In this document: one piece after another, positions 9,941-51,335 of the stretch
Position numbering within the stretch: the stretch's first letter is position 1
Layout of the letters: each line of letters begins with the position of its first letter
Assembly: GCA_963705885.1 (NCBI GenBank)
Contig: OY970120.1
Coordinates: 98,179-162,178, forward strand
Origin: an uncultured Actinomycetota bacterium
GTDB taxonomy: Bacteria > Actinomycetota > Actinomycetes > JACCUZ01
DNA: 64,000 nt
Direction of reading: 5' to 3'
Translations under genes and position numbers: made by a program
The notes under the pieces: model-generated
Seen by the model: only the letters and a program-made list of their open reading frames with translations
Told to the model about the DNA's origin: nothing
Database searches by the model: none

Positions 9941-10032
9941 GCGGAGAGTGTCTCAGCACAGCCCGCTCCAGACGAGCGTTGTGGCGATCCGGTCCGCCCA
10001 CGCGTCCGGGACCCGCGGCTAGCCTGGGGGCC

Positions 10033-10221
10033 ATGACCGAACGCGACAGCGAAGACCCCGGCACGGAGGCGTCCGCGGAGGACCTGCTCGAGCAGCGTGA
10101 ACCGGTCGGCGACGAGGTGACCGACGACGCCCCGCCCAGCGAGACGCCCGCCGACGTCGACCCGGCCGACCTCGCCGAGCAGCTGCGCGCGGTGGACACC
10201 GGGGACGACGAATACCGCTGA
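10033..10221 (+). CDS. small highly acidic protein (hypothetical)
   Basis: 62 aa with about 40% Asp/Glu; internal ATG chosen within ORF 9979-10221. Confidence 0.35.
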   Translation: MTERDSEDPGTEASAEDLLEQREPVGDEVTDDAPPSETPADVDPADLAEQLRAVDTGDDEYR

Positions 10222-10302
10222 GCGGCGCCGACGGGTCCTAGGATCGCTGCCAGTGCCCTGACGGCACCACGGGTGCCCCACCCGGCGACCGAAGGAGCAC
10301 AG

Positions 10303-10932
10303 GTGTCGACTGCTGCGGACTCGCGAGCCCGCAGCGCGCGGCTGCCCCGGTCGGCCCGGAGGCGCCAGCTGCTGGGGGCGGCCCAGGAGGTGTTCGTCGC
10401 CCAGGGCTACCACGCCGCCGCGATGGACGACATCGCCGACCGGGCGGGGGTGAGCAAGCCGGTGCTCTACCAGCACTTCCCGGGCAAGCTCGACCTCTAC
10501 CTGGCGCTGCTCGAGGAGCAGACCGACGCGATGGTCGCCGCCGTGCGCGAGGCCCTCGACTCGACCTCGGACAACAAGCAGCGCGTCGCGGCGACCATCG
10601 AGGCCTACTTCCGTTTCGTGGACGAGGACGGCGAGGCGTTCCGGCTGGTGTTCGAGTCCGACCTGACCAACCGCCCCGAGGTACGCGAGCGCGTCGAGGG
10701 CACGACGCTGGCCTGCGCCGAGCTCATCAGCGACGTGATCGCCGACGACGCCGGCCTGCCGCCCGAGCAGGCCCGTCTGCTGGCCGTCGGCCTGGTCGGC
10801 ATGGCACAGGTCGCGGCCCGGTTCTGGCTGGCCGACGAGGGCTCGATCCCGCGCGACGCGGCGTCCCGGCTGCTCGCGAGCCTGTCCTGGCGGGGCATCG
10901 GCGGCTTCCCCCGGACCGGCGAGGCGCACTGA
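10303..10932 (+). CDS. TetR-family transcriptional regulator
   Basis: TetR HTH (AAMDDIADRAGVSKPVLYQHFPGKLDLY); GAAGGAG RBS 6 nt before GTG 10303. Confidence 0.8.
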   Translation: MSTAADSRARSARLPRSARRRQLLGAAQEVFVAQGYHAAAMDDIADRAGVSKPVLYQHFPGKLDLYLALLEEQTDAMVAAVREALDSTSDNKQRVAATIEAYFRFVDEDGEAFRLVFESDLTNRPEVRERVEGTTLACAELISDVIADDAGLPPEQARLLAVGLVGMAQVAARFWLADEGSIPRDAASRLLASLSWRGIGGFPRTGEAH

Positions 10933-10990
10933 CCGGTCGCCAGCGACTAGCCTGGCCAGTCCGTCACGACAGTCATCCCGGAGGTCCACT

Positions 10991-11218
10991 GTGGAGGTCA
11001 GGATCGGTGTCCAGCACGCGACGCGCGAGCTGGTGATCGAGAGCACGGATTCCACCGAGGCCATCACGAAGGCGGTCTCCGCCGCGCTCACCGGGGAGAG
11101 CAAGGTGCTGTCGCTGGACGACGAGAAGGGCCGGCGCGTCGTCGTGCCGGCCGAGAAGCTCGCCTACGTCGAGATCGGCGAGCCCGAGAGCCGCCACGTG
11201 GGCTTCGGGGCGATGTAG
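10991..11218 (+). CDS. DUF3107-family protein (TB9.4/Rv3208A-like)
   Basis: 75 aa MEVRIGVQHATRELVIESTDS...VPAEKLAYVEIGEPESRHVGFGAM; characteristic DUF3107 sequence and position between a TetR gene and a DEAD-box helicase. Confidence 0.85.
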   Translation: MEVRIGVQHATRELVIESTDSTEAITKAVSAALTGESKVLSLDDEKGRRVVVPAEKLAYVEIGEPESRHVGFGAM

Positions 11219-11235
11219 CGCCTGGCCCTCAGCCC

Positions 11236-11943
11236 TCAGGCCGACAGGCCGAGCGAGGCCATCCGCTTGGTGTGGTTCTCGGTGAGCCGGGCGAACATCC
11301 GCCCGACCTCGGCGAGGTCGGCGCCCCGGTGCGACATGCCGCCGACGAGCAGAGCGGCGAGCGCGTCGCGCTCGGCGGCCACCCGCTGGGCCTGGCTGAG
11401 CGCCTCACCCACGAGCCGGCGGCCCCACAGCGCCAGCCGTCCGGCCAGGCGCGGCTCGGCCGCGATCGCCGCCCGCACCCGGTCGACCACGAACGTCGAG
11501 TGCCCGGTGTCCTCCAGCACTCCGACCACGAGGTCGCGCGTCGAGTCGTCGAGGTAGGCCGACACCTCGCGGTAGAAGTCGGTGGCGATGCCGTCGCCCA
11601 CGTAGGCCTTGACCAGGCCCTCGAGCCAGTCCGACGGGGCGGTGCGCTCGTGGAAGGCCTCGAGCGCCGGGATGAACGGCTCCATCGCCGTCTCGGGGGA
11701 GGCGCCCATCTCCTGAAGCCGGGCCTGGAGCAGCGCGAAGTGGTTGTACTCCGAGACGGCCATGGCCGCCAGCGCCGCCTTGTCGGCGATGGTGGGCGCG
11801 AACGAGGCGTCGTCGGCGAGGCGTTCGAAGGCGGTCAGCTCGCCGTACGCGAGCGCTCCGAGCAGGTCGACGACGGCGAGCCGGTAGTCCGCGTCATCGA
11901 GCGGGTCACCCGCCTGCTGCGACACCGGCCCGTCCTCGCTCAC
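11236..11943 (-). CDS. ferritin-like domain protein (conserved DUF3107-neighbour)
   Basis: 235-aa ORF from GTG 11943; four-helix-bundle-like E/H-rich segments; conserved neighbour of DUF3107 and helicase genes. Confidence 0.6.
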   Translation of the reverse strand: MSEDGPVSQQAGDPLDDADYRLAVVDLLGALAYGELTAFERLADDASFAPTIADKAALAAMAVSEYNHFALLQARLQEMGASPETAMEPFIPALEAFHERTAPSDWLEGLVKAYVGDGIATDFYREVSAYLDDSTRDLVVGVLEDTGHSTFVVDRVRAAIAAEPRLAGRLALWGRRLVGEALSQAQRVAAERDALAALLVGGMSHRGADLAEVGRMFARLTENHTKRMASLGLSA

Positions 11944-12068
11944 GGGAGGCAGCGTAGCGACGGGTAGTCTGTTCCCCGAAGAACGGATGCCCGGTCGCAG
12001 CCAAGTCACGAACCCGATCGGCTCCGACCGAGAGGGATCGATCCCTGCGCGGCCCGCCACCACGACCT

Positions 12069-13787
12069 GTGCGCGGCGTGCGGCCCCGGGGTGCGACCCG
12101 ACGAACGCACGAGAAGGGCACCGTCCTGAACACCCCAACATTCGCCGAGCTCGGCGTGCTCCCGGCCACGGTCGCGGGCCTCGAGGCGGCCTCCATCACC
12201 CATCCGTTCCCGATCCAGGCGCTCACCCTGCCGGTCGCGCTGCACGGCCACGACATCATCGGTCAGGCCAAGACCGGCACCGGCAAGACGCTCGGCTTCG
12301 GCATCCCGCTGCTGCAGCGCGTCGTCGTCGAGGGCGAGGACCACGGTGACCCCTCGCTGCCTCCGCCGGTCGCCGGCAAGCCGCAGGCGCTCGTCGTCGT
12401 GCCGACGCGCGAGCTGTGCGTGCAGGTCACCGGTGACCTGGTCACGGCCGCCGCCAAGCGCGACGTGCGCGTCCTGTCGATCTACGGCGGCCGGGCGTAC
12501 GAGCCGCAGGTCGAGGCGCTGCGCAAGGGCATCGAGGTCGTCGTCGGCACACCCGGCCGCCTCATCGACCTCGCCCAGCAGGGCCATCTCGACCTCGGCC
12601 ACGTCCGCACCCTCGTCCTCGACGAGGCCGACGAGATGCTCGACCTCGGCTTCCTGCCCGATGTCGAGAAGATCGTGCGCCTGGTCCCCGCGGGCCGGCA
12701 GACGATGCTGTTCTCGGCGACGATGCCGGGCGCGATCATCACGCTCGCCCGCGCGTACATGCACCACCCGACGCACATCCGCGCGGTCGACCCCGACGAC
12801 GACGGGCTGACGGTCAAGGCCGTCGAGCAGCATGCCTTCCGCGCGCACGCGATGGACAAGGTGGAGATGCTCGCGCGCATCCTGCAGTCCGAGGGCCGCG
12901 GGCTGACCCTCGTCTTCTGCCGCACGAAGCGCACGGCCGCCAAGGTCGCCGACGATCTCGCCGACCGCGGGTTCGCCTCCGGTGCGGTCCACGGCGACCT
13001 CGGGCAGGGCGCACGCGAGCAGGCGCTGCGCGCGTTCCGCAACGGGAAGGTCGACGTCCTCGTCGCCACCGACGTCGCGGCGCGGGGCATCGACGTGCAG
13101 GACATCACCCACGTCATCAACTACCAGTGCCCCGAGGACGAGAAGACCTACCTGCACCGCATCGGGCGTACGGCTCGCGCCGGCGCCTCGGGCACGGCCA
13201 TCACCTTCGTCGACTGGGACGACATGCCGCGGTGGGCGCTCATCGACAAGGCGCTCGACCTGGGCTTCGGCGAGCCCGAGGAGACCTACTCGAGCTCGGA
13301 CCACCTCTACGAGGAGCTCGACATCCCGCGGCACGTCACCGGCAGGCTCCCCCGCGCGCAGCGCACCCGGGAAGGGCTCGAGGCCGAGGTGCTCGAGGAC
13401 CTCGGCGAGACCGGCCGGGCCGGCAGCCGGGGCAGCGGCGGCCGGCCGGCCGGCGGCCGGGGCCGCGACGGGCGCGACCGCGACGGCGGCCGGTCCGGGT
13501 CCCGTGAGCGTGGCCCCCGTGCGGACGCCGAGAGCGGCGAGCGACCGGAGCGCCCACCGCGCACGCGTGCCCGCCGGCGCACCCGCAACGGCGAGCCGAC
13601 GACGACCGGGCCCGACCCCGCCTCGACGGCGGCCGGCTCCCCGCGATCGACCGACCCCGCCGAGGGCGACGGCTCGGCCCCGCGGCGGCGTCGCCGCTCC
13701 CGGGGCGGCCGCGGCCGGGGCGGGTCGGGCGAGGGCGCGGCCGGCGGCACGCGCGAGTCCGGCGCCTCGGCAGGCGACGGCGCCTGA
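12069..13787 (+). CDS. DEAD-box ATP-dependent RNA helicase with Arg/Gly-rich C-terminal tail
   Basis: Q motif (F, PIQ), Walker A AKTGTGKT, DEAD, SAT, HRIGRTAR; C-terminal about 130 aa RG/RD-rich low complexity; start could be GTG 12069 or 12078. Confidence 0.9.
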   Translation: MRGVRPRGATRRTHEKGTVLNTPTFAELGVLPATVAGLEAASITHPFPIQALTLPVALHGHDIIGQAKTGTGKTLGFGIPLLQRVVVEGEDHGDPSLPPPVAGKPQALVVVPTRELCVQVTGDLVTAAAKRDVRVLSIYGGRAYEPQVEALRKGIEVVVGTPGRLIDLAQQGHLDLGHVRTLVLDEADEMLDLGFLPDVEKIVRLVPAGRQTMLFSATMPGAIITLARAYMHHPTHIRAVDPDDDGLTVKAVEQHAFRAHAMDKVEMLARILQSEGRGLTLVFCRTKRTAAKVADDLADRGFASGAVHGDLGQGAREQALRAFRNGKVDVLVATDVAARGIDVQDITHVINYQCPEDEKTYLHRIGRTARAGASGTAITFVDWDDMPRWALIDKALDLGFGEPEETYSSSDHLYEELDIPRHVTGRLPRAQRTREGLEAEVLEDLGETGRAGSRGSGGRPAGGRGRDGRDRDGGRSGSRERGPRADAESGERPERPPRTRARRRTRNGEPTTTGPDPASTAAGSPRSTDPAEGDGSAPRRRRRSRGGRGRGGSGEGAAGGTRESGASAGDGA

Positions 13788-13794
13788 GGCCTGG

Positions 13795-14628
13795 TCAGGA
13801 CACGGTGCGCAGCGCCGGGACCACGTCGTCCAGGCGGAAGGTGGGGCGTCCGAACAGGTAGCCCTGGGCGAGCCGGCAGCCCATCGCGTGCAGCATCGCG
13901 GCCTGTCCGGGCGTCTCCACGCCCTCGGCCACCACGGACAGCTCCAGGTCGCGTCCGAGCCCGAGCACGGCCCGGGCGACCTTGGTGCCGCTGTCGCTGT
14001 CGAGCGCGGCGACGAAGGTGCGGTCCAGCTTGATGAAGGTCAGGGGCAGCACCGCGACGAGGGACAGGGTCGACCAGCCGGTCCCGAAGTCGTCGAGGCC
14101 GACCCCGCACCCGAGCTCGCGCAGGTCGTGCAGGACCTTCGCCGCGTGCTCGACGTCGCCCATCGCCACGGTCTCGGTCAGCTCGAGGCTGAGCGCGGAA
14201 CCGGGCAGCCCGGTGCGCGCGAGCTCGCCGGCCACGTGCCCCACGAAGGTCGGGTCCTCCAGCTGGCGCGCGGAGACGTTCACCGAGATCGGCACCGGGT
14301 GCCCGGCCGCCTCCCCCAGCTCCGCTGCGACCTCGAGGGCCTGGGTCAGCACCCACCGCCCGAGCGGGACGATCAGCCCCGACGTCTCGGCCACGGGCAC
14401 GAACACGTCCGGACCGGGGCCGCCCGGCCAGCGCAGCAGCACCTCGGCGCCCTCGAGGCCCCCGCCCGGCAGGGCGACGATCGGCTGCACCGCGATCACC
14501 AGCTCCCGGGCGTCGAAGGCCGCCGCGAGCGGCTCCTCGAGCTCCCGGCCCGCGATGTCCCCGCCGGGCCACCCGGGCACCGGCTCGTCTGGCGGGCGGC
14601 GCGCGAACGCGGGACGGCGCCGCGTCAC
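13795..14628 (-). CDS. EAL-domain cyclic-di-GMP phosphodiesterase (stand-alone EAL)
   Basis: EVLLRW (EAL-variant), SVNVS, ELTE, DDFGTG, KLD, EGVE, QGYLFGRP motifs all present; GTG 14628 overlaps the TGA of the upstream regulator (GTGA). Confidence 0.8.
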   Translation of the reverse strand: MTRRRPAFARRPPDEPVPGWPGGDIAGRELEEPLAAAFDARELVIAVQPIVALPGGGLEGAEVLLRWPGGPGPDVFVPVAETSGLIVPLGRWVLTQALEVAAELGEAAGHPVPISVNVSARQLEDPTFVGHVAGELARTGLPGSALSLELTETVAMGDVEHAAKVLHDLRELGCGVGLDDFGTGWSTLSLVAVLPLTFIKLDRTFVAALDSDSGTKVARAVLGLGRDLELSVVAEGVETPGQAAMLHAMGCRLAQGYLFGRPTFRLDDVVPALRTVS

Positions 14629-16019
14629 GGGGACGCCGGCGTCGACGGGGTCGAGGCTGAGGGGCGGGTGGCGTCGGCGTAGGACACGTCCGGTGCCGGG
14701 CGCACGCCCGCTTCGCTCAGGGCCTGCTGGTAGGCCAGGGTCGCGTCCCCGAGCAGGCCGAGCTGGGCGAACGCGTCGGCCAGCTCGCGCCACGCGGTCG
14801 CGGCGGCCCGGGACAGGTCGAGCCCGCCCAGCGTCGCCGCCGCCTCGCGGAACGTCGCGACCGCGTCGTCGCGACGGCCGGAGGCCAGCAGCGCGCGCGC
14901 CCGGACCAGCAGGGTGTGCGCGCTCTCCAGCCGGGGGGTCGGCCCCAGGCGGGCGAGCGCCGAGTCGGCCAGGTCGAGCGCCGCGGCAGCGTGTCCGAGC
15001 AGCACCTCGCAGCGCCCCAGCTCGGTCTCGCAGTAGGCGAGGTCGACCGCGCTGCCCACGTCGGCGAGGACGGTCAGGCTGGCCGACAGCTGTCGCCGCG
15101 CCTCCTCCGGCCGCGGGGGCACCGACCGCAGCAGGAGCCAGCCGTAGGCGACCCGCAGGCGGGCGTGGGCGCGCAGGTCGTCGCCCTCGGCGTAGACCGC
15201 GAGCGCCCGCTCCGCGAGCAGCAGCGCCGAGGGCAGGTCGTCACGCTGCTCTGCCACGAGGCTCGCGTTCCAGAGCACGGCGGCGCGGGCGCGCCCCGAG
15301 CCCGCCTCGTCGACCACGGCCAGCACCTCGGTGGCCATCTGCTGGGCGCGCACCAGGTCCCCGCGCAGGTAGTAGCCACCCAGCACCGAGGAGACCAGCT
15401 CGGCGTGGACGTCGCTGCCCAGCAGGCCGGCCTGACGCACCGTGCGGAGCGCGCCCTCGCCGACGTCGAGGGCGTAGGACACGTCGCCGGCCTCCAGGTA
15501 GCACCGCACCGCGTCGACCGTGAGGCGCAGGTGCTCGCCGTGGCGGCGCTCGGCGAGGGCCTGGGCGCGCAGCGACTCGACCTCGGTGAGGGCCTCCTCG
15601 AGGCGCCCGAGGCCCTCGAGCGCGGCGCAGCGCAGTCGACGCGCCCGCCAGCCGTCCTCACGGCCCGGGACGACCCCGGCGCCCCCGGCCGGGAGGGCGT
15701 CGAGCTGGGCCAGGGCGTCGGCGGGCTCACCGTTGCGCAGCGCGAGCTCGGCGTAGTCCAGCGTGAGGCGGGCCCGCTCCGCCTGGGCGGGGTCGCCGCC
15801 TCGGCGCAGGGTGTCCGGGGAGCAGCCCAGCCGGGCCGCGAGCAGGTCGACAGCGGCCGGGGTCGGCCGGCGGCGGCCGGACTCGAGCAGCGAGACGTAG
15901 CTCGCGGACAGGTCGTCGCCGGCCAGCGCGGTCTGCGACATCCCCGCGGCCCGGCGCATCGCGCGCAGCCGCTCCGCGAAGCCCTCGGCGGGCACACCCG
16001 GCTCCGGCATCGTCACCAC
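14625..16019 (-). CDS. XRE-family HTH transcriptional regulator with large C-terminal TPR-like domain (RRNPP/Rgg-like architecture)
   Basis: N-terminal HTH (FAERLRAMRRAAGMSQTALAG...SYVSLLESGRRRPT) followed by about 380 aa Ala/Leu-rich helical repeats; 464 aa. Confidence 0.8.
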   Translation of the reverse strand: MVTMPEPGVPAEGFAERLRAMRRAAGMSQTALAGDDLSASYVSLLESGRRRPTPAAVDLLAARLGCSPDTLRRGGDPAQAERARLTLDYAELALRNGEPADALAQLDALPAGGAGVVPGREDGWRARRLRCAALEGLGRLEEALTEVESLRAQALAERRHGEHLRLTVDAVRCYLEAGDVSYALDVGEGALRTVRQAGLLGSDVHAELVSSVLGGYYLRGDLVRAQQMATEVLAVVDEAGSGRARAAVLWNASLVAEQRDDLPSALLLAERALAVYAEGDDLRAHARLRVAYGWLLLRSVPPRPEEARRQLSASLTVLADVGSAVDLAYCETELGRCEVLLGHAAAALDLADSALARLGPTPRLESAHTLLVRARALLASGRRDDAVATFREAAATLGGLDLSRAAATAWRELADAFAQLGLLGDATLAYQQALSEAGVRPAPDVSYADATRPSASTPSTPASP

Positions 16020-31918: not shown

Positions 31919-32449
31919 GTGGTCGTGACCGGCGACCGAGACTCGGCTCTGGCCCGGGCCCTGGTCGAGGAGGCCTGCCGCAAGTCGTCCCTCGTGTGGC
32001 TGAGACCCGCCGCCGCCGACCGTGCCGTCGCCGCCTGGCACGTGTTCACCGACGGCGCGGTGCACGTGGTGGGAGGTGGCATCGAGCAGGACCTGCCCGA
32101 GGTCGCCGACGGCGACGAGGTCGAGGTCACCGTCCGCAGCAAGGACACCGGTGGCCGCCTGCTCTGCTTCGCCGCCACGGTTACGGTCGTCCGGCCCGAG
32201 GACCCCGCCTGGGCGGTGGTGGTGCCGGATCTGCACGCCAAGCGCCTCAACCCGCCGGACGGCGAGGCCCAGCCTGAGCGCTGGGCCCGCGAGTCGCGGG
32301 TGCTGCGGCTGGAGCCCACGGGCCGGGTGCCCGAGCGGCCGGGTCACCTCCCGCAGCGCTCGCACGCCGCCGAGCCACCGGGCTCGCCCGCGACGACGCG
32401 CGGCCCGCTCCCGTTCGTGATCGGCCGCCGGGCGACCCGTCGCCGCTAG
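31919..32449 (+). CDS. hypothetical protein
   Basis: 176-aa ORF starting after the convergent EamA gene; high GC3; no family assigned. Confidence 0.35.
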   Translation: MVVTGDRDSALARALVEEACRKSSLVWLRPAAADRAVAAWHVFTDGAVHVVGGGIEQDLPEVADGDEVEVTVRSKDTGGRLLCFAATVTVVRPEDPAWAVVVPDLHAKRLNPPDGEAQPERWARESRVLRLEPTGRVPERPGHLPQRSHAAEPPGSPATTRGPLPFVIGRRATRRR

Positions 32450-32460
32450 CCTGGCTTCTC

Positions 32461-33750
32461 GTGACTGGCGCACCGACGAGGGTCTTCATCGCGCGCCTGG
32501 CCGGCACCCCGCTCTTCGACCCGATGGGCGACCAGGTCGGCCGGGTGCGCGACGTCGTCGTCACCCTCAGGGTGGGGCGCGAGGAGCCACGCGTGCTCGG
32601 CCTGGTCGTCGAGGTGCCCGGACGCCGCCGCATCTTCGTCCCGATGACCCGCGTCACCTCGATCGACGTGGGCCAGGTCATCACGACCGGCCTGGTCAAC
32701 ATGCGGCGCTTCCAGCAGCGGGCCACCGAGACCCTCGTCCTCGGCGAGATGCTCGACCGCACCGTGACCCTCGTCGACGACGGAGCGCGTGTCCTGGTCG
32801 AGGACGTCGGCATGGAGCAGCAGCGCACCCGTGACTGGGCCGTCACCCGGGTGTTCGTGCGCCGGCCGGGGAAGGGTCTGCGCCGCCGCGGCGAGGCCCT
32901 CACGGTGGAGTGGCAGGACGTCACCGGCTTCTCCGTCGAGGAGGAGGGCCAGGGCGCCGCCAACCTGCTGGCGACCTTCGAGAAGCTCAACGTCGCGGAC
33001 CTGGCGACGGTGCTGCACGAGCTGTCCCCCAAGCGCCGGGTCGAGGTGGCGGCGGCGCTCGACGACGAGAAGCTCGCGGACGTCCTCGAGGAGCTGCCCG
33101 AGGACGACCAGGTCGAGATCCTCGGCAAGCTGGAGGAGGAGCGCGCCGCCGACGTCCTGGAGGCGATGCAGCCCGACGACGCCGCCGACCTGCTCTCCGA
33201 GCTGCCGACGGCCGACGCCGAGAAGCTGCTCAAGCTCATGGAGCCCGACGAGGCGGCCCCGCTGCGTCGCCTGCTCACCTACTCCGACGACACGGCCGGC
33301 GGCATGATGACCACCGAGCCGGTCGTGCTCCCGCCCGACGCCACCGTCGCCGAGGCCCTCGCCCGGGTGCGCCAGCCCGAGATCTCGCCCGCGCTCGCGG
33401 CCCAGGTCTACGTGTGCCGGCCGCCGATGGAGACCCCGACCGGCCGGTTCATCGGCACGGCGCACATCCAGCGGCTGCTGCGCGAGCCCCCGTCGGCACT
33501 GGTCAGCGGTGTCGTCGACAGCGGACTGGAGCCGGTGCGGCCCGACGTCGCGCTGGGAGCCCTGACGCACCACCTGGCCACGTACAACCTCGTGGCGGTG
33601 CCCGTCGTCGACGAGGACGACCACCTGCTCGGCGCGGTGACCGTCGACGACGTCCTCGACCACCTGCTCCCCGACGACTGGCGCGCCCGCGACCGGGCCC
33701 AGATCGCGGCCGTTCCCGAGGTGACCCAGGGGGTCGACCATGGCACGTGA
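32461..33750 (+). CDS. PRC-barrel + MgtE_N + tandem CBS domain protein lacking the MgtE membrane domain
   Basis: MgtE N-domain acidic helices (DLATVLHELSP, ADLLSELP, EKLLKLMEP) then CBS pair (AVPVVDEDDHLLGAVTVDDVLD); no hydrophobic helices; ends at 33750. Confidence 0.75.
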   Translation: MTGAPTRVFIARLAGTPLFDPMGDQVGRVRDVVVTLRVGREEPRVLGLVVEVPGRRRIFVPMTRVTSIDVGQVITTGLVNMRRFQQRATETLVLGEMLDRTVTLVDDGARVLVEDVGMEQQRTRDWAVTRVFVRRPGKGLRRRGEALTVEWQDVTGFSVEEEGQGAANLLATFEKLNVADLATVLHELSPKRRVEVAAALDDEKLADVLEELPEDDQVEILGKLEEERAADVLEAMQPDDAADLLSELPTADAEKLLKLMEPDEAAPLRRLLTYSDDTAGGMMTTEPVVLPPDATVAEALARVRQPEISPALAAQVYVCRPPMETPTGRFIGTAHIQRLLREPPSALVSGVVDSGLEPVRPDVALGALTHHLATYNLVAVPVVDEDDHLLGAVTVDDVLDHLLPDDWRARDRAQIAAVPEVTQGVDHGT

Positions 33751-34276
33751 GCCGCGGCGGGGCGCTCGCCTCGACCAGCCGCGCGAGGTGCGGCGGACCC
33801 TCGTGCCGACGCCGACCTACGACCCCGATGCCTTCGGCCGGCTGAGCGAGCGCGTCGCACGGTTCATCGGCACGGGGCGGTTCCTCGTGTACATGACCGT
33901 GTTCGTCATCGTGTGGCTGATCTGGAACGTCATCGCCGAGATGCTGATCTTCGACGACTACCCGTTCGTGTTCCTCACGCTGATGCTGTCGCTGCAGGCG
34001 TCCTACGCCGCCCCGCTCATCCTGCTGGCGCAGAACAGGCAGACCGACCGCGACCGCGTGCAGTACGAGCAGGACCGGGCCCGGGCCGAGCGCAACATCG
34101 CCGACACCGACTACCTCACCCGGGAGCTGGCCTCGCTGCGGATGGCCGTCGGCGACGTCGCGACGCGTGACTTCCTGCGCTCGGAGCTGCGCCAGCTGCT
34201 CGACGACCTCGACGAACGACACGACGGGGCCGGCTCGGAGGGGTCCGACGCGTCGGCGGCGCGCGACCACCGCTGA
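33740..34276 (+). CDS. DUF1003-family membrane protein
   Basis: Two TM helices plus conserved LSLQASYAAPLILLAQNRQ; start overlaps the upstream gene by 11 nt. Confidence 0.7.
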   Translation: MAREPRRGARLDQPREVRRTLVPTPTYDPDAFGRLSERVARFIGTGRFLVYMTVFVIVWLIWNVIAEMLIFDDYPFVFLTLMLSLQASYAAPLILLAQNRQTDRDRVQYEQDRARAERNIADTDYLTRELASLRMAVGDVATRDFLRSELRQLLDDLDERHDGAGSEGSDASAARDHR

Positions 34277-34308
34277 AGTCGGAGGCCGGTGACGCCGACG
34301 TACCAGGG

Positions 34309-36054
34309 GTGACCGAACCCGCGTTCCCCGCACAGGCCGGGCCGGAGCGGGACGAGCACGGCGCGCCGGGGACGCCGGCCCGCGACCAGCTCGGGGTCGT
34401 GCTCGTCGCCGCCGGCGTCGTGACCGAGACCGAGCTGGAGGAGGCGCTGACCTTCCAGCGCTCCGTGGTCGGGGCGCGCCGGCGCCTCGGTCACGTGCTC
34501 GTGGACCTCGGGCTCGCCAGCGAGCGCCAGATCGCCGACGCCCTCGGCGACCAGCTCGGGCTGCCCGTCGTCGACCTCAACAAGGTGGCCATCGCGCCCG
34601 AGACCGTGCGCCTCCTGCCACGCGCGGTGGCGCACCGGCTCGGCATGCTCGTCCTCTCGACCGCCGGGCGAGAGGTCACCGTCGCCGCCGTCGACCCCAC
34701 CGACGTCGTCGCGCTGGACGACGCCCGGCTGCACACCGGGGCGAGCGAGCTGCGGGTCACCGTCGCGACCGAGTCCCAGGTCCGCGACCACCTGGTGCGG
34801 GTCTGGTCGCTGTCCGAGGACGCGACGGACGTGACGACCTTCTTCGAGGACGTCGACCTCGAACGGGCGGACAGCGACGAGGGCACGTCCGCGGTCGACG
34901 ACGCCCCGACCGTCCGGCTCGTGACGACGCTGCTGGCCGACGCGGTGCGGGTGGGGGCGAGCGACATCCACGTCGAGCCGCAGCGGTCGGACCTGCGCAT
35001 CCGCTACCGGGTCGACGGTGTCCTGCGTGACGTCATGGCGCTCCCCCGCAGCGCCACGGCGGCCATCTCGAGCCGCATCAAGATCGTGTCCGGCCTGGAC
35101 ATCGCGGAGCGCCGGTTGCCCCAGGACGGCCGGACGCGCTTCGTCGTGGACGGCCGGCCGGTCGACGCGCGCGTCAGCACGCTGCCCGCCGTGCACGGCG
35201 AGAAGGTCGTGGTGCGCCTGCTGACCAGGCCGGACCAGCTGCCCCGCCTGGACGATCTCGGGCTCACCCCGGCCCAGCTCACCGACCTGCGCCGGGCCGT
35301 GGCCGCACCGCAGGGGCTGGTCCTGGTCACCGGGCCCACCGGCTCCGGGAAGACGAGCACGCTCTACTCGCTGCTGGGCGAGGTGGACACCTTCGAGCGC
35401 AACGTCGTCACCCTCGAGGACCCGGTCGAGATCCAGGTGCCGCGGATCACCCAGGTCCAGGTGCACGACCGGGCGGGCCTGACCTTCGGCCGCGGGCTGC
35501 GGGCGGTGCTCCGCCAGGACCCGGACGTCGTGCTGGTCGGGGAGATCCGTGACACCGAGACCGCCGACCTCGCGGTCCGGGCCTCGCTCACCGGTCACCT
35601 GGTCCTGACCACGCTCCACACGAACAGCACCGTCGCCGCGATGACCCGGCTGGTGGACATGGGCGTGGAGCCCTACCTCGTCGGGTCGTCCCTGAGCGCC
35701 GTCGTCTCGCAGCGGCTGGTCCGCCGACCCTGCGCCTCCTGCGTGACGGAGGACGAGCCGGACCCGGACCTGCTGGCCGCGCTGGGGCTGGGCGTCCTCC
35801 CGGAGGGCGCGACGCCCGTCCGGGGGGCGGGGTGCACCGAGTGCGGCCAGTCCGGCTACCGGGGCCGGTTCGGCGTCTTCGAGGTGCTACCGGTCGACCA
35901 GGACCTCCGTCGCGTCCTCGGCGCCGACCCCTCCGAGGCGGCGGTGGCAGCCGCCACGAGTGGGCTGCGCACGGTCCGCGACGCGGCCGTCGCCAAGGCG
36001 CTGGCCGGGGAGACGACCTTCGAGGAGGTGGCCCGGGTCAGTCCGCGGGAGTGA
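34309..36054 (+). CDS. GspE/PilB-family secretion-type ATPase (T2SSE_N domain + AAA+ secretion ATPase core)
   Basis: N-terminal GSPII_E_N (IADALGDQLGLPVVDL), Walker A GPTGSGKTST, Asp box, Walker B VVLVGEIRD, His box, tetracysteine (CASC...CTEC). Confidence 0.85.
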   Translation: MTEPAFPAQAGPERDEHGAPGTPARDQLGVVLVAAGVVTETELEEALTFQRSVVGARRRLGHVLVDLGLASERQIADALGDQLGLPVVDLNKVAIAPETVRLLPRAVAHRLGMLVLSTAGREVTVAAVDPTDVVALDDARLHTGASELRVTVATESQVRDHLVRVWSLSEDATDVTTFFEDVDLERADSDEGTSAVDDAPTVRLVTTLLADAVRVGASDIHVEPQRSDLRIRYRVDGVLRDVMALPRSATAAISSRIKIVSGLDIAERRLPQDGRTRFVVDGRPVDARVSTLPAVHGEKVVVRLLTRPDQLPRLDDLGLTPAQLTDLRRAVAAPQGLVLVTGPTGSGKTSTLYSLLGEVDTFERNVVTLEDPVEIQVPRITQVQVHDRAGLTFGRGLRAVLRQDPDVVLVGEIRDTETADLAVRASLTGHLVLTTLHTNSTVAAMTRLVDMGVEPYLVGSSLSAVVSQRLVRRPCASCVTEDEPDPDLLAALGLGVLPEGATPVRGAGCTECGQSGYRGRFGVFEVLPVDQDLRRVLGADPSEAAVAAATSGLRTVRDAAVAKALAGETTFEEVARVSPRE

Positions 36055-36541
36055 CCCGGGGCGACGTGGTCGTGAGCGGGGTTTGCGACGCGCCGTTCTC
36101 GCCGAGCATGCGCGCGAGCAGCTCGGCCAGCTCGCCGGACTGGTCGTCGTCGAGGCGGCCCATGGCGTGCGCCACCACGCCGCGGAGGTGGGTCGGGCTC
36201 GCCGCGCGCAGCCTGTCGACGCCCGCGTCGGTGAGCACGGTGAACATCCCCCGGGCGTCGTCGGCGCAGGCCTCCCGGCGGACGAGGGCCTCGCGCTCCA
36301 GCCGGTCGACCAGCCGGGTGAGCCCGCTGCGCGAGAGCAGCACCCTCTCGGCCAGCTCGGACATCCGCAGCCGCCGCTCGGGCGCCTCGACGAGCTGCAC
36401 CAGGACGTCGTAGGTCGCCAGCGGCATCCCCCGCTCCGCGAGCAGGTCCCCCTCCAGGCGGCGCGTCACCACCGCGTGCGTGCGCAGGAACAGGCGCCAT
36501 GCCGCCATCTGCCGCTGCGTCAGCGGGCCCGGGTCCTGCAT
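36038..36541 (-). CDS. MarR-family transcriptional regulator
   Basis: wHTH (MSELAERVLLSRSGLTRLVDRLEREALVRR); 167 aa from an internal ATG. Confidence 0.75.
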   Translation of the reverse strand: MQDPGPLTQRQMAAWRLFLRTHAVVTRRLEGDLLAERGMPLATYDVLVQLVEAPERRLRMSELAERVLLSRSGLTRLVDRLEREALVRREACADDARGMFTVLTDAGVDRLRAASPTHLRGVVAHAMGRLDDDQSGELAELLARMLGENGASQTPLTTTSPRVTPAD

Positions 36542-36721
36542 ACCGGGGGATGGTAGTGGCCAGCCCGCCGACGACCCTGGTGGCCGCCGGGTGAGGTCGA
36601 GCGAGCTCCGGCGGCGCCCCGACACCCGCGGTGGGCCGTCGGCGAGCGCGAGGACGTGGTCGTACGCCGCCACGACCCGGTCATGGAATCGCACCTCGAG
36701 CGGGCGACGTAGCATCGAGAC

Positions 36722-37864
36722 ATGCCCGCCCCCAGCATCGAGCAGGTCCAGGCTGCCCTGGCAACGGTCGACGACCCCGAGATCCACAAGCCGATCACCG
36801 ACCTCGGCATGGTCAAGTCGGTCGACATCGGCCCCGGTGGCGACGTCGCGGTGGCGATCTACCTCACGGTGGCCGGCTGCCCGATGAAGGACACGATCAC
36901 CTCGCGCGTCACGACGGCGGTGCAGGCCGTCGAGGGGGTCACCGGCGTCCGGGTCGACCTTGACGTCATGTCGTCGGCGCAGCGCCAGGAGATGCAGTCC
37001 CGGCTGCGCGCGGAGTCGGGGATGACCGAGCGCGAGATCCCCTTCGCCCGCGCCGGGTCCCTGACCCGGGTCTACGCCGTGGCGTCCGGCAAGGGCGGGG
37101 TCGGCAAGTCGTCCGTCACGGTCAACCTCGCGGCGGCGATGGCCCGCTCCGGGCTCTCGGTCGGCGTCGTGGACGCCGACATCTACGGGCACTCCGTGCC
37201 GCGCATGCTCGGCGTCACCGGCCGGCCCACGCAGGTCGAGGACATGATCATGCCGCCCTCGGCGCACGGCGTGCGGGTCATCTCGATCGGCATGTTCGTG
37301 GCCGACAACCAGCCCGTCGTGTGGCGCGGCCCGATGCTGCACCGCGCGCTCCAGCAGTTCCTCGGCGACGTGTTCTGGGGGGACCTCGACGTGCTGCTCA
37401 TGGACCTGCCGCCGGGCACCGGCGATATCGCCATCTCGGTGGCCCAGCTCGTGCCCACGGCCGAGCTGCTGGTGGTCACCACCCCGCAGCAGGCGGCGGC
37501 CGAGGTGGCCGAGCGGGCCGGCACCATCGCGCTGCAGACCCACCAGCAGATCGCCGGCGTCGTCGAGAACATGTCCTACCTGCCGTGCCCCCACTGCGAC
37601 GAGCGGGTCGAGGTGTTCGGCAGCGGCGGCGGCCAGGCGGTCGCCGACGGGCTCACGCGCTCGGTCGGTGCGCCCGTGCCGCTTCTCGGCGAGGTGCCGA
37701 TCGACATGCGCCTGCGCGAGGGCGGCGACACCGGGCGGCCCCTGGTCCTCGACGACCCGGACGCCCCGGCCTCCCGCGTGCTCATGGACGTGGCCGACCG
37801 GCTGGGTCACCGGGCGCGCGGCCTTGCCGGGCGCTCGCTGGGCTTGACCCCGGCCGGGCGCTGA
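36722..37864 (+). CDS. mrp: Mrp/ApbC Fe-S cluster carrier ATPase with N-terminal DUF59
   Basis: Walker A GKGGVGKSS, CPHC-type cysteine pair (LPCPHCD), DUF59 N-terminus. Confidence 0.9.
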   Translation: MPAPSIEQVQAALATVDDPEIHKPITDLGMVKSVDIGPGGDVAVAIYLTVAGCPMKDTITSRVTTAVQAVEGVTGVRVDLDVMSSAQRQEMQSRLRAESGMTEREIPFARAGSLTRVYAVASGKGGVGKSSVTVNLAAAMARSGLSVGVVDADIYGHSVPRMLGVTGRPTQVEDMIMPPSAHGVRVISIGMFVADNQPVVWRGPMLHRALQQFLGDVFWGDLDVLLMDLPPGTGDIAISVAQLVPTAELLVVTTPQQAAAEVAERAGTIALQTHQQIAGVVENMSYLPCPHCDERVEVFGSGGGQAVADGLTRSVGAPVPLLGEVPIDMRLREGGDTGRPLVLDDPDAPASRVLMDVADRLGHRARGLAGRSLGLTPAGR

Positions 37865-49941: not shown

Positions 49942-50535
49942 TCAGGGCTCGGCCTCGAGGAGCTCGTCGGGGGCGGCCGAGAGGGTGGGCTCGACACGCC
50001 CGCGCTCGATGACGTCGAACGCCGCCGCGACGTCGCGGGTCCAGTGCAGGGCATCGAGGGCACCGGGACGTACGAACCCGCGCTCGGCCAGCAGGTCGAC
50101 CTGGGCGCGCAGCGGGTCGAAGATGCCGTCCGGGTCGAGGACCACCACCGGCTTGCCGTGCATCGCCAGCGTCCGGGAGACCCAGATCTCCAGGAGCTCC
50201 TCGAGCGTGCCCAGCCCGCCCGGCAGCGTGAGGAAGGCCTCGGCCCGCGCGTCCATCTCCGCCTTACGGGTGCGCATGTCCGGCGTGACCACGAGCTCGT
50301 CGGCGTCGTGGTCGGCGACCTCGAGGGCGACCAGCGAGCGCGGGATGACGCCGACCGTGTGCGCGCCCCCGGCCCGTGCCGCGCGCGCGACCGCACCCAT
50401 GCACGAGACGCTGCCCCCGCCGCTGACCAGGCTGTGACCGCGGCGCGCGAGCTCGGTGCCGACCGCGGCGGCCAGCTCGACGTACGACGGGTCGATCCGC
50501 CCGCTCGAGGAGCAGAAGACGCAGACCGCGGCCAC
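49942..50535 (-). CDS. LOG-family cytokinin riboside 5'-monophosphate phosphoribohydrolase (type I)
   Basis: PGGxGTxxE motif (LPGGLGTLEEL); 197 aa. Confidence 0.8.
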   Translation of the reverse strand: MAAVCVFCSSSGRIDPSYVELAAAVGTELARRGHSLVSGGGSVSCMGAVARAARAGGAHTVGVIPRSLVALEVADHDADELVVTPDMRTRKAEMDARAEAFLTLPGGLGTLEELLEIWVSRTLAMHGKPVVVLDPDGIFDPLRAQVDLLAERGFVRPGALDALHWTRDVAAAFDVIERGRVEPTLSAAPDELLEAEP

Positions 50536-51335
50536 TAGTCGCGCAGCCCTCCGTGCTCCTGGTCGCCCGCGGAGATGACGATCCGCACGGCCTCGACGGG
50601 GTCGTCGGTGACGCTGAACAGGTCCAGGTCACGCTCGGCGACCTTGCCCTCGGCGAGCAGCGTGGAGCGCAGCCAGCCCACGAGCCCGTCCCAGTAGTCG
50701 TGCCCGACCAGCACGACGGGGAAGGAGGTGACCTTGCGCGTCTGCACCAGGGTGAGCGCCTCGAAGAGCTCGTCGAGCGTGCCGAAGCCGCCGGGCAGCA
50801 CGATGAACCCCTGGGCGTACTTCACGAACATCGTCTTGCGGGCGAAGAAGTAGCGGAAGTCGACGCCGATGTCGACCCACTGGTTCATGCCCTGCTCGAA
50901 GGGCAGCTCGATGCCGAGCCCGACCGACACCCCGCCGGCCTCGCAGGCTCCCTTGTTCGCGGCCTCCATGGTGCCGGGGCCGCCGCCGGTGATGACGGCG
51001 TGGCCGGCCTCTGCCAGCAGCCGGCCGACCCGCTCGGCACGCGCGTAGTCGGCGGAGTCGCGCTGTACCCGGGCCGACCCGAAGACGCTGACGGCCCGCC
51101 CCAGCTCGGCGAGCGCCCCGAAGCCCTCGACGAACTCGGCCTGGATGCGCAGCACCCGCCACGGGTCGGTGTGGACCCAGTCGGTCGAGCCACGGGAGTC
51201 GAGCAGCCGCTGGTCGGTGGTGCTCGTCTCCACCTGCCGGCGTCGCAGCGTGACCGGGCCCTTGTGGGTCTCGCGAGTGCGCTCCCCGTCGGGCACGGCG
51301 TCGCCGTCGTGGGGCAAGGGGGACTCGAGGACCAT
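50535..51335 (-). CDS. LOG-family protein (type II, longer form)
   Basis: GGGPGTMEAANKGA and LPGGFGTLDELFE motifs; its stop overlaps the start of the downstream LOG gene. Confidence 0.8.
   Translation of the reverse strand: MVLESPLPHDGDAVPDGERTRETHKGPVTLRRRQVETSTTDQRLLDSRGSTDWVHTDPWRVLRIQAEFVEGFGALAELGRAVSVFGSARVQRDSADYARAERVGRLLAEAGHAVITGGGPGTMEAANKGACEAGGVSVGLGIELPFEQGMNQWVDIGVDFRYFFARKTMFVKYAQGFIVLPGGFGTLDELFEALTLVQTRKVTSFPVVLVGHDYWDGLVGWLRSTLLAEGKVAERDLDLFSVTDDPVEAVRIVISAGDQEHGGLRD

What the first reader, a model, noticed from the sequence alone, without database searches (positions are those of the whole stretch)
32461..36054. Co-oriented trio: membrane-less MgtE_N/CBS/PRC protein, DUF1003 membrane protein and an orphan GspE/PilB ATPase
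Three plus-strand genes are packed tightly (an 11-nt overlap, then a 33-nt gap). The first encodes the complete cytoplasmic sensing part of an MgtE Mg2+ channel (PRC barrel, MgtE N-domain, CBS pair) but no transmembrane domain. The second is a 2-TM DUF1003 protein. The third is a full-length type II/IV secretion-family ATPase with an N-terminal T2SSE_N domain and a tetracysteine zinc motif. There are no pilin, platform (PilC/GspF/TadB) or secretin genes within at least 20 kb on either side. The function of such orphan GspE ATPases in actinobacteria is unknown. The pairing with a split, MgtE-like Mg2+/nucleotide-sensing module suggests a regulated membrane-associated ATPase system of undescribed function.
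Basis: partly seen in the sequence, partly recalled or inferred. Interest (0 to 1): 0.55.

Follow-up and report, generated by a model that had tools for sequence, protein, structure and literature searches.

The report
Pilus-type ATPase in actinomycete housekeeping operon
A pilus-motor-like ATPase with a likely cyclic-di-GMP sensor sits, with no pilus genes nearby, inside a gene block conserved in the actinomycetes sampled; it is an old but optional passenger there, not part of an obligatory three-gene machine.

Summary
The context changes the interpretation.

- **The pair stands alone.** All 80 actinomycete genome loci sampled have the soluble MgtE_N/CBS protein followed by DUF1003. Mrp (an Fe-S carrier) follows wherever the contig continues. 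Only 5 of the 79 informative loci carry the ATPase.
- **There is a fourth gene.** A conserved 176-aa protein with no Pfam match ends 11 nt before the trio.
- **The ATPase is a PilB paralogue.** It forms its own clade (at least 53% identity to the window protein). Both MshEN c-di-GMP motifs and all catalytic motifs are kept, and the gene is under purifying selection.
- **It is never near pilus genes.** No PilC, PilM, PilD or pilin gene occurs in 29 loci of this clade. PilC occurs in 42 of 62 canonical PilB loci.
- **The linkage is usual but not obligatory.** In 15 of 21 loci fetched through the ATPase, it lies downstream of DUF1003, mostly −4 to +83 nt away. Six loci have lost that linkage. The ATPase has also been lost several times while the pair stayed.

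The trio is therefore an ancient, usually co-transcribed but facultative association. The ATPase's direct partner is unresolved. No paper found describes the arrangement.

The parts
31919..32449 (+). Conserved 176-aa protein with no Pfam, PDB or PADLOC match. It is the first gene of the co-oriented run and ends 11 nt before the next gene.
   Evidence: Start inferred by alignment with called genes in L002, L003 and L006. Pfam gave 0 families and PDB gave none. tblastn found it in 84 of 86 related loci.
32461..33750 (+). Soluble PRC / SH3_actinomycetes / MgtE_N / CBS-pair protein. It is MgtE-like cytosolic sensor domains with no membrane domain.
   Evidence: TIGR00400 scored 114.8 bits against a cutoff of 232.75. 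It is 63-92% identical in the related loci that carry it.
33740..34276 (+). DUF1003 membrane protein with two TM segments and a long C-terminal helical tail. It overlaps the upstream gene by 11 nt.
   Evidence: It lies directly downstream of the sensor gene in 80 of 80 genome loci. The 11-nt overlap recurs in L001-L003.
34309..36054 (+). PilB-type hexameric ATPase paralogue made of an MshEN N-domain, an N2 domain and a zinc-binding catalytic domain.
   Evidence: Its subfamily is monophyletic. dN/dS is 0.17-0.37.
34387..34554 (+). MshEN c-di-GMP-binding region. Motif I (residues 27-50) is QLGVVLVAAGVVTETELEEALTFQ, followed by an 8-residue spacer. Motif II (residues 59-82) is RLGHVLVDLGLASERQIADALGDQ.
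   Evidence: NF053729 scored 47.5 bits against a cutoff of 38. Motif scan. Consensus taken from PMC5013675.
35332..35844 (+). Catalytic core: Walker A (residue 342), Asp box (369), Walker B (403), His box (429) and the tetracysteine CASC475/CTEC509.
   Evidence: The same residues are invariant in alignment A2.
36038..36544 (-). MarR-family regulator. It converges on the ATPase gene with a 17-nt 3' overlap and is divergent from mrp. It is a variable occupant of the slot.
   Evidence: It was detected in 11 of 86 loci, some with and some without the ATPase.
36722..37864 (+). Mrp/ApbC-type Fe-S cluster carrier ATPase. It is the conserved downstream member of the block.
   Evidence: It follows DUF1003 in 78 of 80 genome loci; the other two contigs end first.

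Best explanation
**What the locus is (shown).** The conserved actinomycete gene run is: 176-aa protein, soluble MgtE-like sensor, DUF1003 membrane protein, then Mrp. It lies inside the sigE / anti-sigma / rseB / htrA / tatB neighbourhood. In one anciently established, mostly uncultured set of lineages, an extra gene sits between DUF1003 and mrp. That gene encodes a PilB-derived hexameric ATPase.

**The pair (inferred mechanism).** The sensor/DUF1003 pair is an autonomous module. The two genes overlap, which suggests translational coupling and a stoichiometric complex. I infer that the acidic MgtE_N domain and the CBS pair read Mg2+ and/or adenine nucleotides and act on the 2-TM partner in the membrane. 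The pair does not need the ATPase.

**The ATPase.** It is a facultative accessory.
- Shown: it keeps all catalytic motifs, is under purifying selection, and is normally placed for co-transcription with the pair.
- Inferred: it is gated by c-di-GMP through its MshEN domain. In many relatives it is also controlled through a fused C-terminal receiver domain.
- Shown: it is not part of a local pilus or type II secretion apparatus.

**My commitment.** I think it most likely acts as a second-messenger-controlled ATPase co-expressed with the membrane module, with a regulatory or signalling role at the membrane. I do not think it is an obligate third subunit. Its direct target is unresolved.
For: **The pair is universal and independent.** DUF1003 follows the sensor gene in 80 of 80 loci, Mrp follows in 78 of 80, and the ATPase is present in 5. 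ATPase-free loci show no ATPase remnants.

**The ATPase is ancient and has been lost repeatedly.** ATPase-bearing loci sit on several deep branches of an MgtE_N+Mrp tree, with ATPase-free loci L008 and L010 nested among them. ATPase identity falls in step with that of its neighbours.

**It belongs to a distinct subfamily.** Members at 53% identity or more form one clade, separate from canonical PilB.

**It has no pilus context.** 0 of 29 subfamily loci have PilC, PilM, PilD or pilin; 42 of 62 canonical loci have PilC.

**It is packed tightly.** Gaps after DUF1003 are −4 to +83 nt in 13 loci. No terminator or promoter consensus lies between the genes.

**It looks functional.** Motifs are intact. 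dN/dS is 0.17-0.37.

**It probably senses c-di-GMP.** NF053729 scores above its cutoff. The two motifs are conserved across orthologues. An EAL protein is encoded in the window. REC and zinc-ribbon fusions occur in relatives at the same locus.
Against: - Co-transcription is inferred from spacing only.
- The window protein and its three closest relatives have Gln instead of the motif-I Arg that stacks on guanine. The spacer is 8 residues rather than 5. c-di-GMP binding may therefore be weakened.
- No biochemical role is known for DUF1003.
- Insertions between DUF1003 and the ATPase are rare (2 of 15), while the ATPase-mrp interval varies freely. That pattern hints at a tighter link than mere co-expression.
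- Genome-wide absence of pilus genes was not tested.
Confidence: 0.45

Rival explanations
1. The three proteins form one membrane-associated machine. DUF1003, with the MgtE-like sensor bound, replaces PilC as the platform for the hexameric ATPase. The result would be a motor that responds to Mg2+/nucleotide and c-di-GMP and has nothing to do with pili.
For: - Adjacency is the ancestral state of the whole ATPase subfamily and is kept in 15 of 21 ATPase-fetched loci.
- Gaps are −4 to +83 nt.
- No PilC-type platform occurs in any of 29 loci.
- DUF1003 has a long cytoplasmic helical tail.
Against: - 74 of 79 informative pair-bearing genome loci lack the ATPase, including relatives at 82-88% identity.
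- Six ATPase loci lack the pair upstream. In L094 the pair is missing from an otherwise syntenic locus.
- In L006 and L101 genes have been inserted between DUF1003 and the ATPase; in L006 they lie on the opposite strand.
- DUF1003 has no signature specific to ATPase-bearing genomes.
- No interaction was tested.
Confidence: 0.2
2. The ATPase is the assembly motor of a type IV pilus or competence pseudopilus whose pilins, platform and peptidase are encoded elsewhere, as with scattered pilus genes in some bacteria. Its position next to the pair would then be historical.
For: - The best solved relatives are true pilus assembly ATPases over their full length: Thermus PilF 2.1e-148, and Geobacter and Myxococcus PilB.
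- The MshEN + N2 + zinc-CTD architecture is complete.
- Scattering of pilus genes is known from general knowledge, not tested here.
Against: - It scores below the equivalog cutoffs for PilB (539 vs 676 bits) and GspE (535 vs 630 bits).
- It forms a clade separate from canonical PilB, which does sit with PilT, PilC and PilM.
- None of 29 loci has any pilus gene.
- C-terminal REC and zinc-ribbon fusions occur in many members.
Confidence: 0.3
3. The ATPase is a decaying relic with no current function, kept in place only because this chromosomal neighbourhood is stable.
For: - It has been lost repeatedly.
- It evolves faster than its neighbours.
- The window lineage carries Arg-to-Gln in motif I.
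- A 99.6%-identical strain has two 1-nt insertions in the gene.
Against: - dN/dS is well below 1.
- All catalytic and zinc residues are invariant down to 59% identity.
- The ORF is full-length in nearly all loci.
- The indels in L167 lie next to G runs, so they could be assembly errors rather than real mutations (my inference).
Confidence: 0.05

Closest known systems
Type IVa pilus assembly ATPase PilB/PilF (Thermus PilF 6f8l; Geobacter PilB 5tsg; Myxococcus PilB 3jc8)
   Same: It matches over the full length (up to 499 bits). It shares the MshEN N-domain, N2 domain, Walker A/B, Asp and His boxes and the tetracysteine zinc site.
   Different: It scores below the TIGR02538 cutoff and forms a separate clade. 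It is never next to PilT, PilC, PilM, PilD or pilin genes. It sits in a housekeeping operon, and many members carry C-terminal REC or zinc-ribbon domains.
Vibrio cholerae MshE and the MshEN c-di-GMP receptor domain (PMC5013675)
   Same: It has two tandem 24-residue RLGxx(L/V/I)(L/V/I)xxG(L/V/I)(L/V/I)xxxxLxxxLxxQ motifs. NF053729 scores above its cutoff.
   Different: The spacer is 8 residues rather than 5. The window lineage has Gln in place of the first Arg of motif I. There is no MSHA-type pilus operon.
MgtE Mg2+ channel (Thermus 2yvx; Enterococcus 2oux)
   Same: The N domain and CBS pair align to the cytosolic regulatory part of MgtE.
   Different: There is no five-helix membrane domain, and the score is below the TIGR00400 cutoff. 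Extra N-terminal PRC and SH3-like domains are present. The protein is encoded next to, and overlaps, an unrelated 2-TM DUF1003 protein.
Type II secretion ATPase GspE (Vibrio EpsE 1p9r, 4ksr)
   Same: The catalytic domain is homologous (379-389 bits).
   Different: The solved GspE match with the widest coverage starts at query residue 101, after the c-di-GMP motifs. The score is below the TIGR02533 cutoff. No GspF, GspL, GspD or pseudopilin genes are present.
Myxococcus xanthus PilB acting as a signalling protein for exopolysaccharide production (PMC5544727, title and abstract seen)
   Same: It is a precedent for a PilB-type ATPase with a regulatory output beyond pilus assembly.
   Different: That PilB is still the motor of a real pilus encoded with pil genes. 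No such role was tested here.

Membership tests
PilB type IV-A pilus assembly ATPase (TIGR02538 equivalog) | Whole-protein score at or above the curated cutoff of 675.65 bits | tested here: not met
   539.4 bits
PilB type IV-A pilus assembly ATPase | Catalytic motifs (Walker A/B, Asp box, His box) and the tetracysteine zinc site | tested here: met
PilB type IV-A pilus assembly ATPase | Genomic association with the PilC platform, PilM, the prepilin peptidase or pilins | tested here: not met
   None in the 64-kb window. 0 of 29 subfamily loci have any, whereas 42 of 62 canonical loci have PilC. The rest of the genome was not searched.
GspE type II secretion ATPase (TIGR02533 equivalog) | Score at or above 630.25 bits, with T2SS partner genes present | tested here: not met
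   535 bits. No GspF, GspD or GspL were found in the window.
MshEN c-di-GMP receptor domain | Domain model NF053729 at or above 38 bits, with two 24-residue motifs | tested here: met
   47.5 bits. Both motifs were found. Motif II is perfect; motif I has Q for R at position 1; the spacer is 8 residues, not 5.
MshEN c-di-GMP receptor domain | Actual binding of c-di-GMP | not testable with these tools
   Needs ITC or DRaCALA on residues 1-170, including a Q27R variant.
MgtE magnesium transporter (TIGR00400) | Score at or above 232.75 bits and a C-terminal five-helix membrane domain | tested here: not met
   114.8 bits, covering only profile positions 25-251 of 450. No TM segment.
MgtE cytosolic regulatory module | MgtE_N domain followed by a CBS pair | tested here: met
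DUF1003 (PF06210) | Pfam gathering score and two TM helices | tested here: met
   119.4 bits against a cutoff of 27.4. Two hydrophobic segments.
Anti-phage defence systems (PADLOC) | A match of any of the four proteins to a defence-system model | tested here: not met
   Only a P-loop-level hit at E = 4e-4.

The most novel reading that the evidence does not exclude
A clade of PilB-derived ATPases has been recruited away from pili. It would use the DUF1003 / MgtE-like sensor complex as its membrane partner. The product would be a c-di-GMP-, phosphorylation- and Mg2+/nucleotide-responsive membrane machine of a kind not described before. It would also give a first functional handle on the DUF1003 pair, which was conserved in every actinomycete locus sampled here.
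Probability: 0.2. Interest if true: 0.75.

Novelty: new variant of a known kind. Interest (0 to 1): 0.42.

Why it matters
PilB/GspE-family motors are understood almost only as engines of pili and secretion systems. A well-conserved clade that is never encoded with filament or platform genes points to a different use of this motor. That clade keeps the c-di-GMP motifs of its MshEN domain and often carries a fused receiver domain.

The work also defines a gene pair found in every actinomycete locus sampled: a soluble MgtE-like sensor plus DUF1003, placed next to mrp. Its function is unknown. From memory, and untested here, the pair probably corresponds to M. tuberculosis Rv1232c/Rv1231c. The ATPase-bearing lineages could be a natural starting point for studying what that pair does.

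Tried and rejected
**Searches that found nothing**
- Rfam scan of 28-40 kb at E ≤ 0.1: no riboswitch or other RNA family.
- Promoter and terminator consensus scan of 31.5-38.1 kb: nothing.
- PADLOC: no defence link.
- PDB sequence search: no relatives for DUF1003 or the 176-aa protein.
- Literature: DUF1003 is mentioned in only two unrelated papers. Nothing covers this trio, MshEN ATPases in Actinobacteria, or orphan PilB in Actinobacteria.
- ATPase pseudogene remnants in ATPase-free loci: none.
- A DUF1003 sequence signature specific to ATPase-bearing genomes: none.

**Explanations rejected**
- A recent mobile insertion. The ATPase phylogeny tracks that of its neighbours and composition is uniform.
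- A canonical pilus or T2SS locus.

**Not attempted**
- AlphaFold of DUF1003.
- A whole-genome census of pilus genes.
Full report
**1. Observation**

The window is about 74% G+C throughout. The three plus-strand ORFs are 32461-33750, 33740-34276 and 34309-36054. They have strongly coding-type third-position G+C of 0.95-0.97.

- **Protein 1.** It has PRC, MgtE_N and CBS domains. It matches only positions 25-251 of the 450-position MgtE model, well below the family cutoff. It aligns to solved MgtE cytosolic domains and has no hydrophobic segment.
- **Protein 2.** It is a DUF1003 protein with two hydrophobic segments.
- **Protein 3.** It has MshEN plus T2SSE domains with every catalytic motif and a CASC...CTEC tetracysteine.
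- **Spacing.** The overlap between the first two genes is 11 nt. The gap before the third is 32 nt.
- **No pilus genes.** Pfam scans of 40 ORFs between 12 and 56 kb found no pilin, platform, PilM, peptidase or secretin gene. A prepilin-motif scan and tblastn with pilus-gene queries found none anywhere in the window.

**2.

- A fourth co-oriented gene (31919-32449, 176 aa) ends 11 nt before the trio. It has no Pfam or PDB match, but 84 of 86 related loci contain it.
- Downstream lie a convergent MarR gene (36038-36544) and then mrp/apbC (36722-37864).
- Further on are an epimerase, tatB, htrA, rseB, an anti-sigma factor and an ECF sigma factor.
- The trio therefore sits inside a well-conserved actinobacterial housekeeping neighbourhood.

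**3. The pair stands alone**

I scanned one genome per species using an alignment of the sensor protein. The scan returned 80 loci: mostly Streptomyces, plus Kitasatospora, Streptacidiphilus, Kribbella, Actinomadura, Actinocorallia and several MAGs.

- All 80 have DUF1003 immediately downstream.
- 78 have Mrp after it; the other two contigs end first.
- Only 5 have the ATPase between DUF1003 and Mrp, and all 5 are MAGs. One further locus, L009, ends too soon after DUF1003 to tell.
- Relatives whose sensor is 82-88% identical to the window's (L008, L010) lack the ATPase cleanly, with no remnants.
- On an MgtE_N+Mrp tree the ATPase-bearing loci lie on several deep branches, with ATPase-free loci nested among them.
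- ATPase identity falls in step with that of its neighbours.

The simplest reading is an old acquisition followed by several independent losses.

**4. The ATPase is a distinct PilB paralogue**

- Its best solved relatives are pilus assembly ATPases matched over their full length. It still scores below the curated PilB and GspE cutoffs.
- Database homologues at 59-92% identity are all from metagenomes or MAGs. Some carry C-terminal zinc-ribbon and receiver domains.
- Five contexts fetched through those homologues (L001-L003, L005, L006) all show sensor, DUF1003, ATPase, an optional MarR, then Mrp. This includes a receiver-fused and a zinc-ribbon-fused member.
- A metagenome scan with an ATPase alignment returned 80 loci spanning 38-68% identity.
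- In a tree, members at 53% identity or more form one clade. A small sister clade (L103, L110) and then canonical PilB lie outside it.
- I clustered neighbouring ORFs and checked representatives with Pfam. Canonical PilB loci carry PilC (42 of 62), PilT, PilD, PilM and pilins. None of the 29 subfamily loci carries any of these.

**5. How tight is the link to the pair?**

Twenty-one subfamily loci were fetched through the ATPase and have usable upstream sequence.

| Arrangement | Loci |
|---|---|
| Pair directly upstream | 13 |
| Pair upstream, separated by about 3 kb of inserted genes (L006, L101) | 2 |
| Pair not upstream (L089, L090, L094, L096, L099, L100) | 6 |

- In most of the 13 directly linked loci the gap from the DUF1003 stop to the first possible ATPase start is −4 to +83 nt.
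- L094 looks like the syntenic locus with the pair removed: EamA, a short-chain dehydrogenase, the ATPase, then Mrp.
- In L099 and L100 the ATPase follows an ABC-3 metal transporter.
- The exceptions are nested inside the clade, so adjacency is the ancestral state and dissociation is secondary.
- The interval between the ATPase and mrp is much more variable. It may hold MarR, two HpcH genes or others.
- An alignment of DUF1003 from ATPase-bearing and ATPase-free genomes shows the same invariant core and no ATPase-specific feature.

**6. Is the ATPase functional and regulated?**

- Walker A, the Asp box, Walker B, the His box and the four cysteines are invariant in an alignment reaching 59% identity.
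- Pairwise dN/dS for the ATPase is 0.17-0.37. The sensor gives 0.08-0.18 and Mrp 0.13-0.20. The gene is under purifying selection but is less constrained than its neighbours.
- The N-terminus contains the two 24-residue MshEN motifs defined structurally for Vibrio MshE, and the domain model scores above its cutoff.
- Motif II is perfect. Motif I starts with Arg in 43 of 47 scored homologues, but with Gln in the window and its three closest relatives.
- The spacer is 8 residues rather than 5 in 46 of 47 scored homologues (10 in the other).
- c-di-GMP binding is therefore likely for the subfamily and uncertain in strength for this protein.
- The window encodes an EAL protein, so the organism probably uses c-di-GMP.

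**7. Interpretation**

*Shown:* the anatomy; the independence of the pair; the ancient but facultative presence of the ATPase; its separation from pilus loci; and its conservation.

*Inferred:*
- co-transcription, from spacing;
- complex formation between the sensor and DUF1003, from the conserved 11-nt overlap seen;
- Mg2+/nucleotide sensing, from homology to the MgtE cytosolic domain;
- c-di-GMP control.

I favour a second-messenger-controlled accessory ATPase that is co-expressed with an autonomous membrane module (0.45). The alternatives are a motor for a pilus encoded elsewhere (0.30), an obligate three-part machine (0.20) and a decaying relic (0.05).

**8. Known or new?**

- MshEN ATPases, and MshEN in other domain combinations including with REC, are known in general.
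- No paper found describes this subfamily, its association with DUF1003/MgtE_N-CBS, or any function for the pair.
- From memory, the pair corresponds to M. tuberculosis Rv1232c/Rv1231c next to mrp. That orthology was not tested here.
- If it holds, three published observations become relevant: Rv1232c was found in a membrane fraction; insertions in the Rv1231c-Rv1234 equivalents reduced BCG fitness; and a small RNA was predicted just downstream of Rv1231c.

**9. Verdict**

This is a new variant of a known kind: a PilB-type ATPase outside any pilus context. Interest is moderate. The decisive missing test is a whole-genome census of pilus components in the carrier genomes.

Noticed in passing
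window 31919-32449 (+): A conserved 176-aa protein with no Pfam, PDB or PADLOC match ends 11 nt before the sensor gene. tblastn detects it in 84 of 86 related loci. It is probably the first gene of the operon.
   Followed up: partly
L005, L030, L089, L090, L092, L097 (receiver-sized ORFs); L006, L014, L034 (zinc-ribbon-sized ORFs); P0080-P0120: Many subfamily ATPases have C-terminal extensions. Precomputed Pfam calls them zinc-ribbon (DZR), DUF7575 and/or receiver (REC) domains for P0080-P0120, L005 and L006. For the other loci the fusion type is inferred from ORF length only. The window protein (581 aa) has no extension.
   Followed up: partly
L094 (ATPase at 9986-12181): The locus is syntenic (EamA, SDR, ATPase, Mrp), but the 176-aa gene, the sensor and DUF1003 are absent within 10 kb. 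The ATPase can therefore persist without the adjacent pair.
   Followed up: partly
L099 6-2400 and L100 2603-3379: In two dissociated loci the ATPase follows ABC-transporter genes. L099 has an ATP-binding subunit and two ABC-3 (Mn/Zn-type) permeases; in L100 only the ATP-binding subunit was scanned. This would be a second metal-transport neighbour, and it may be coincidence.
   Followed up: no
L167 2570-4317 (ENA ERZ25039498 contig_3093): A strain 99.6% identical to the window has two 1-nt insertions next to G runs inside the ATPase gene, which break the reading frame. These could be assembly errors (my inference) or real pseudogenisation.
   Followed up: partly
L006 7412-9904; L101 175-3373: About 3 kb of unrelated genes separate DUF1003 from the ATPase. 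In L006 they are a Methyltransf_19 gene, DUF397 and an HTH_31/DUF5753 gene, all on the opposite strand. The L101 genes (one on the opposite strand, two co-oriented) were not annotated.
   Followed up: no
window 36038-36054: The MarR gene and the ATPase gene converge and overlap by 17 nt at their 3' ends. MarR is divergent from mrp across a 177-bp spacer.
   Followed up: no
window 13795-14793 (-) and 14625-16019 (-): A stand-alone EAL-domain protein lies next to an HTH/TPR regulator, about 18 kb upstream of the MshEN ATPase. L005 has a PAS-GGDEF-EAL protein about 6 kb upstream of its ATPase.
   Followed up: no
L008 11275-11752: DUF1003 matches in two different frames, which indicates a frameshift or sequencing error. 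This locus also lacks the ATPase.
   Followed up: no
window 49942-51335 (-): Two tandem LOG-family (Lysine_decarbox/SLOG) genes lie next to a MarR regulator.
   Followed up: no
L103, L110: A sister clade of longer ATPases (712-763 aa by longest ORF, 48-50% identity) sits in yet another context. In L103 the neighbours are a luciferase-like monooxygenase and a DNA methylase. No pilus genes were found in either locus.
   Followed up: no
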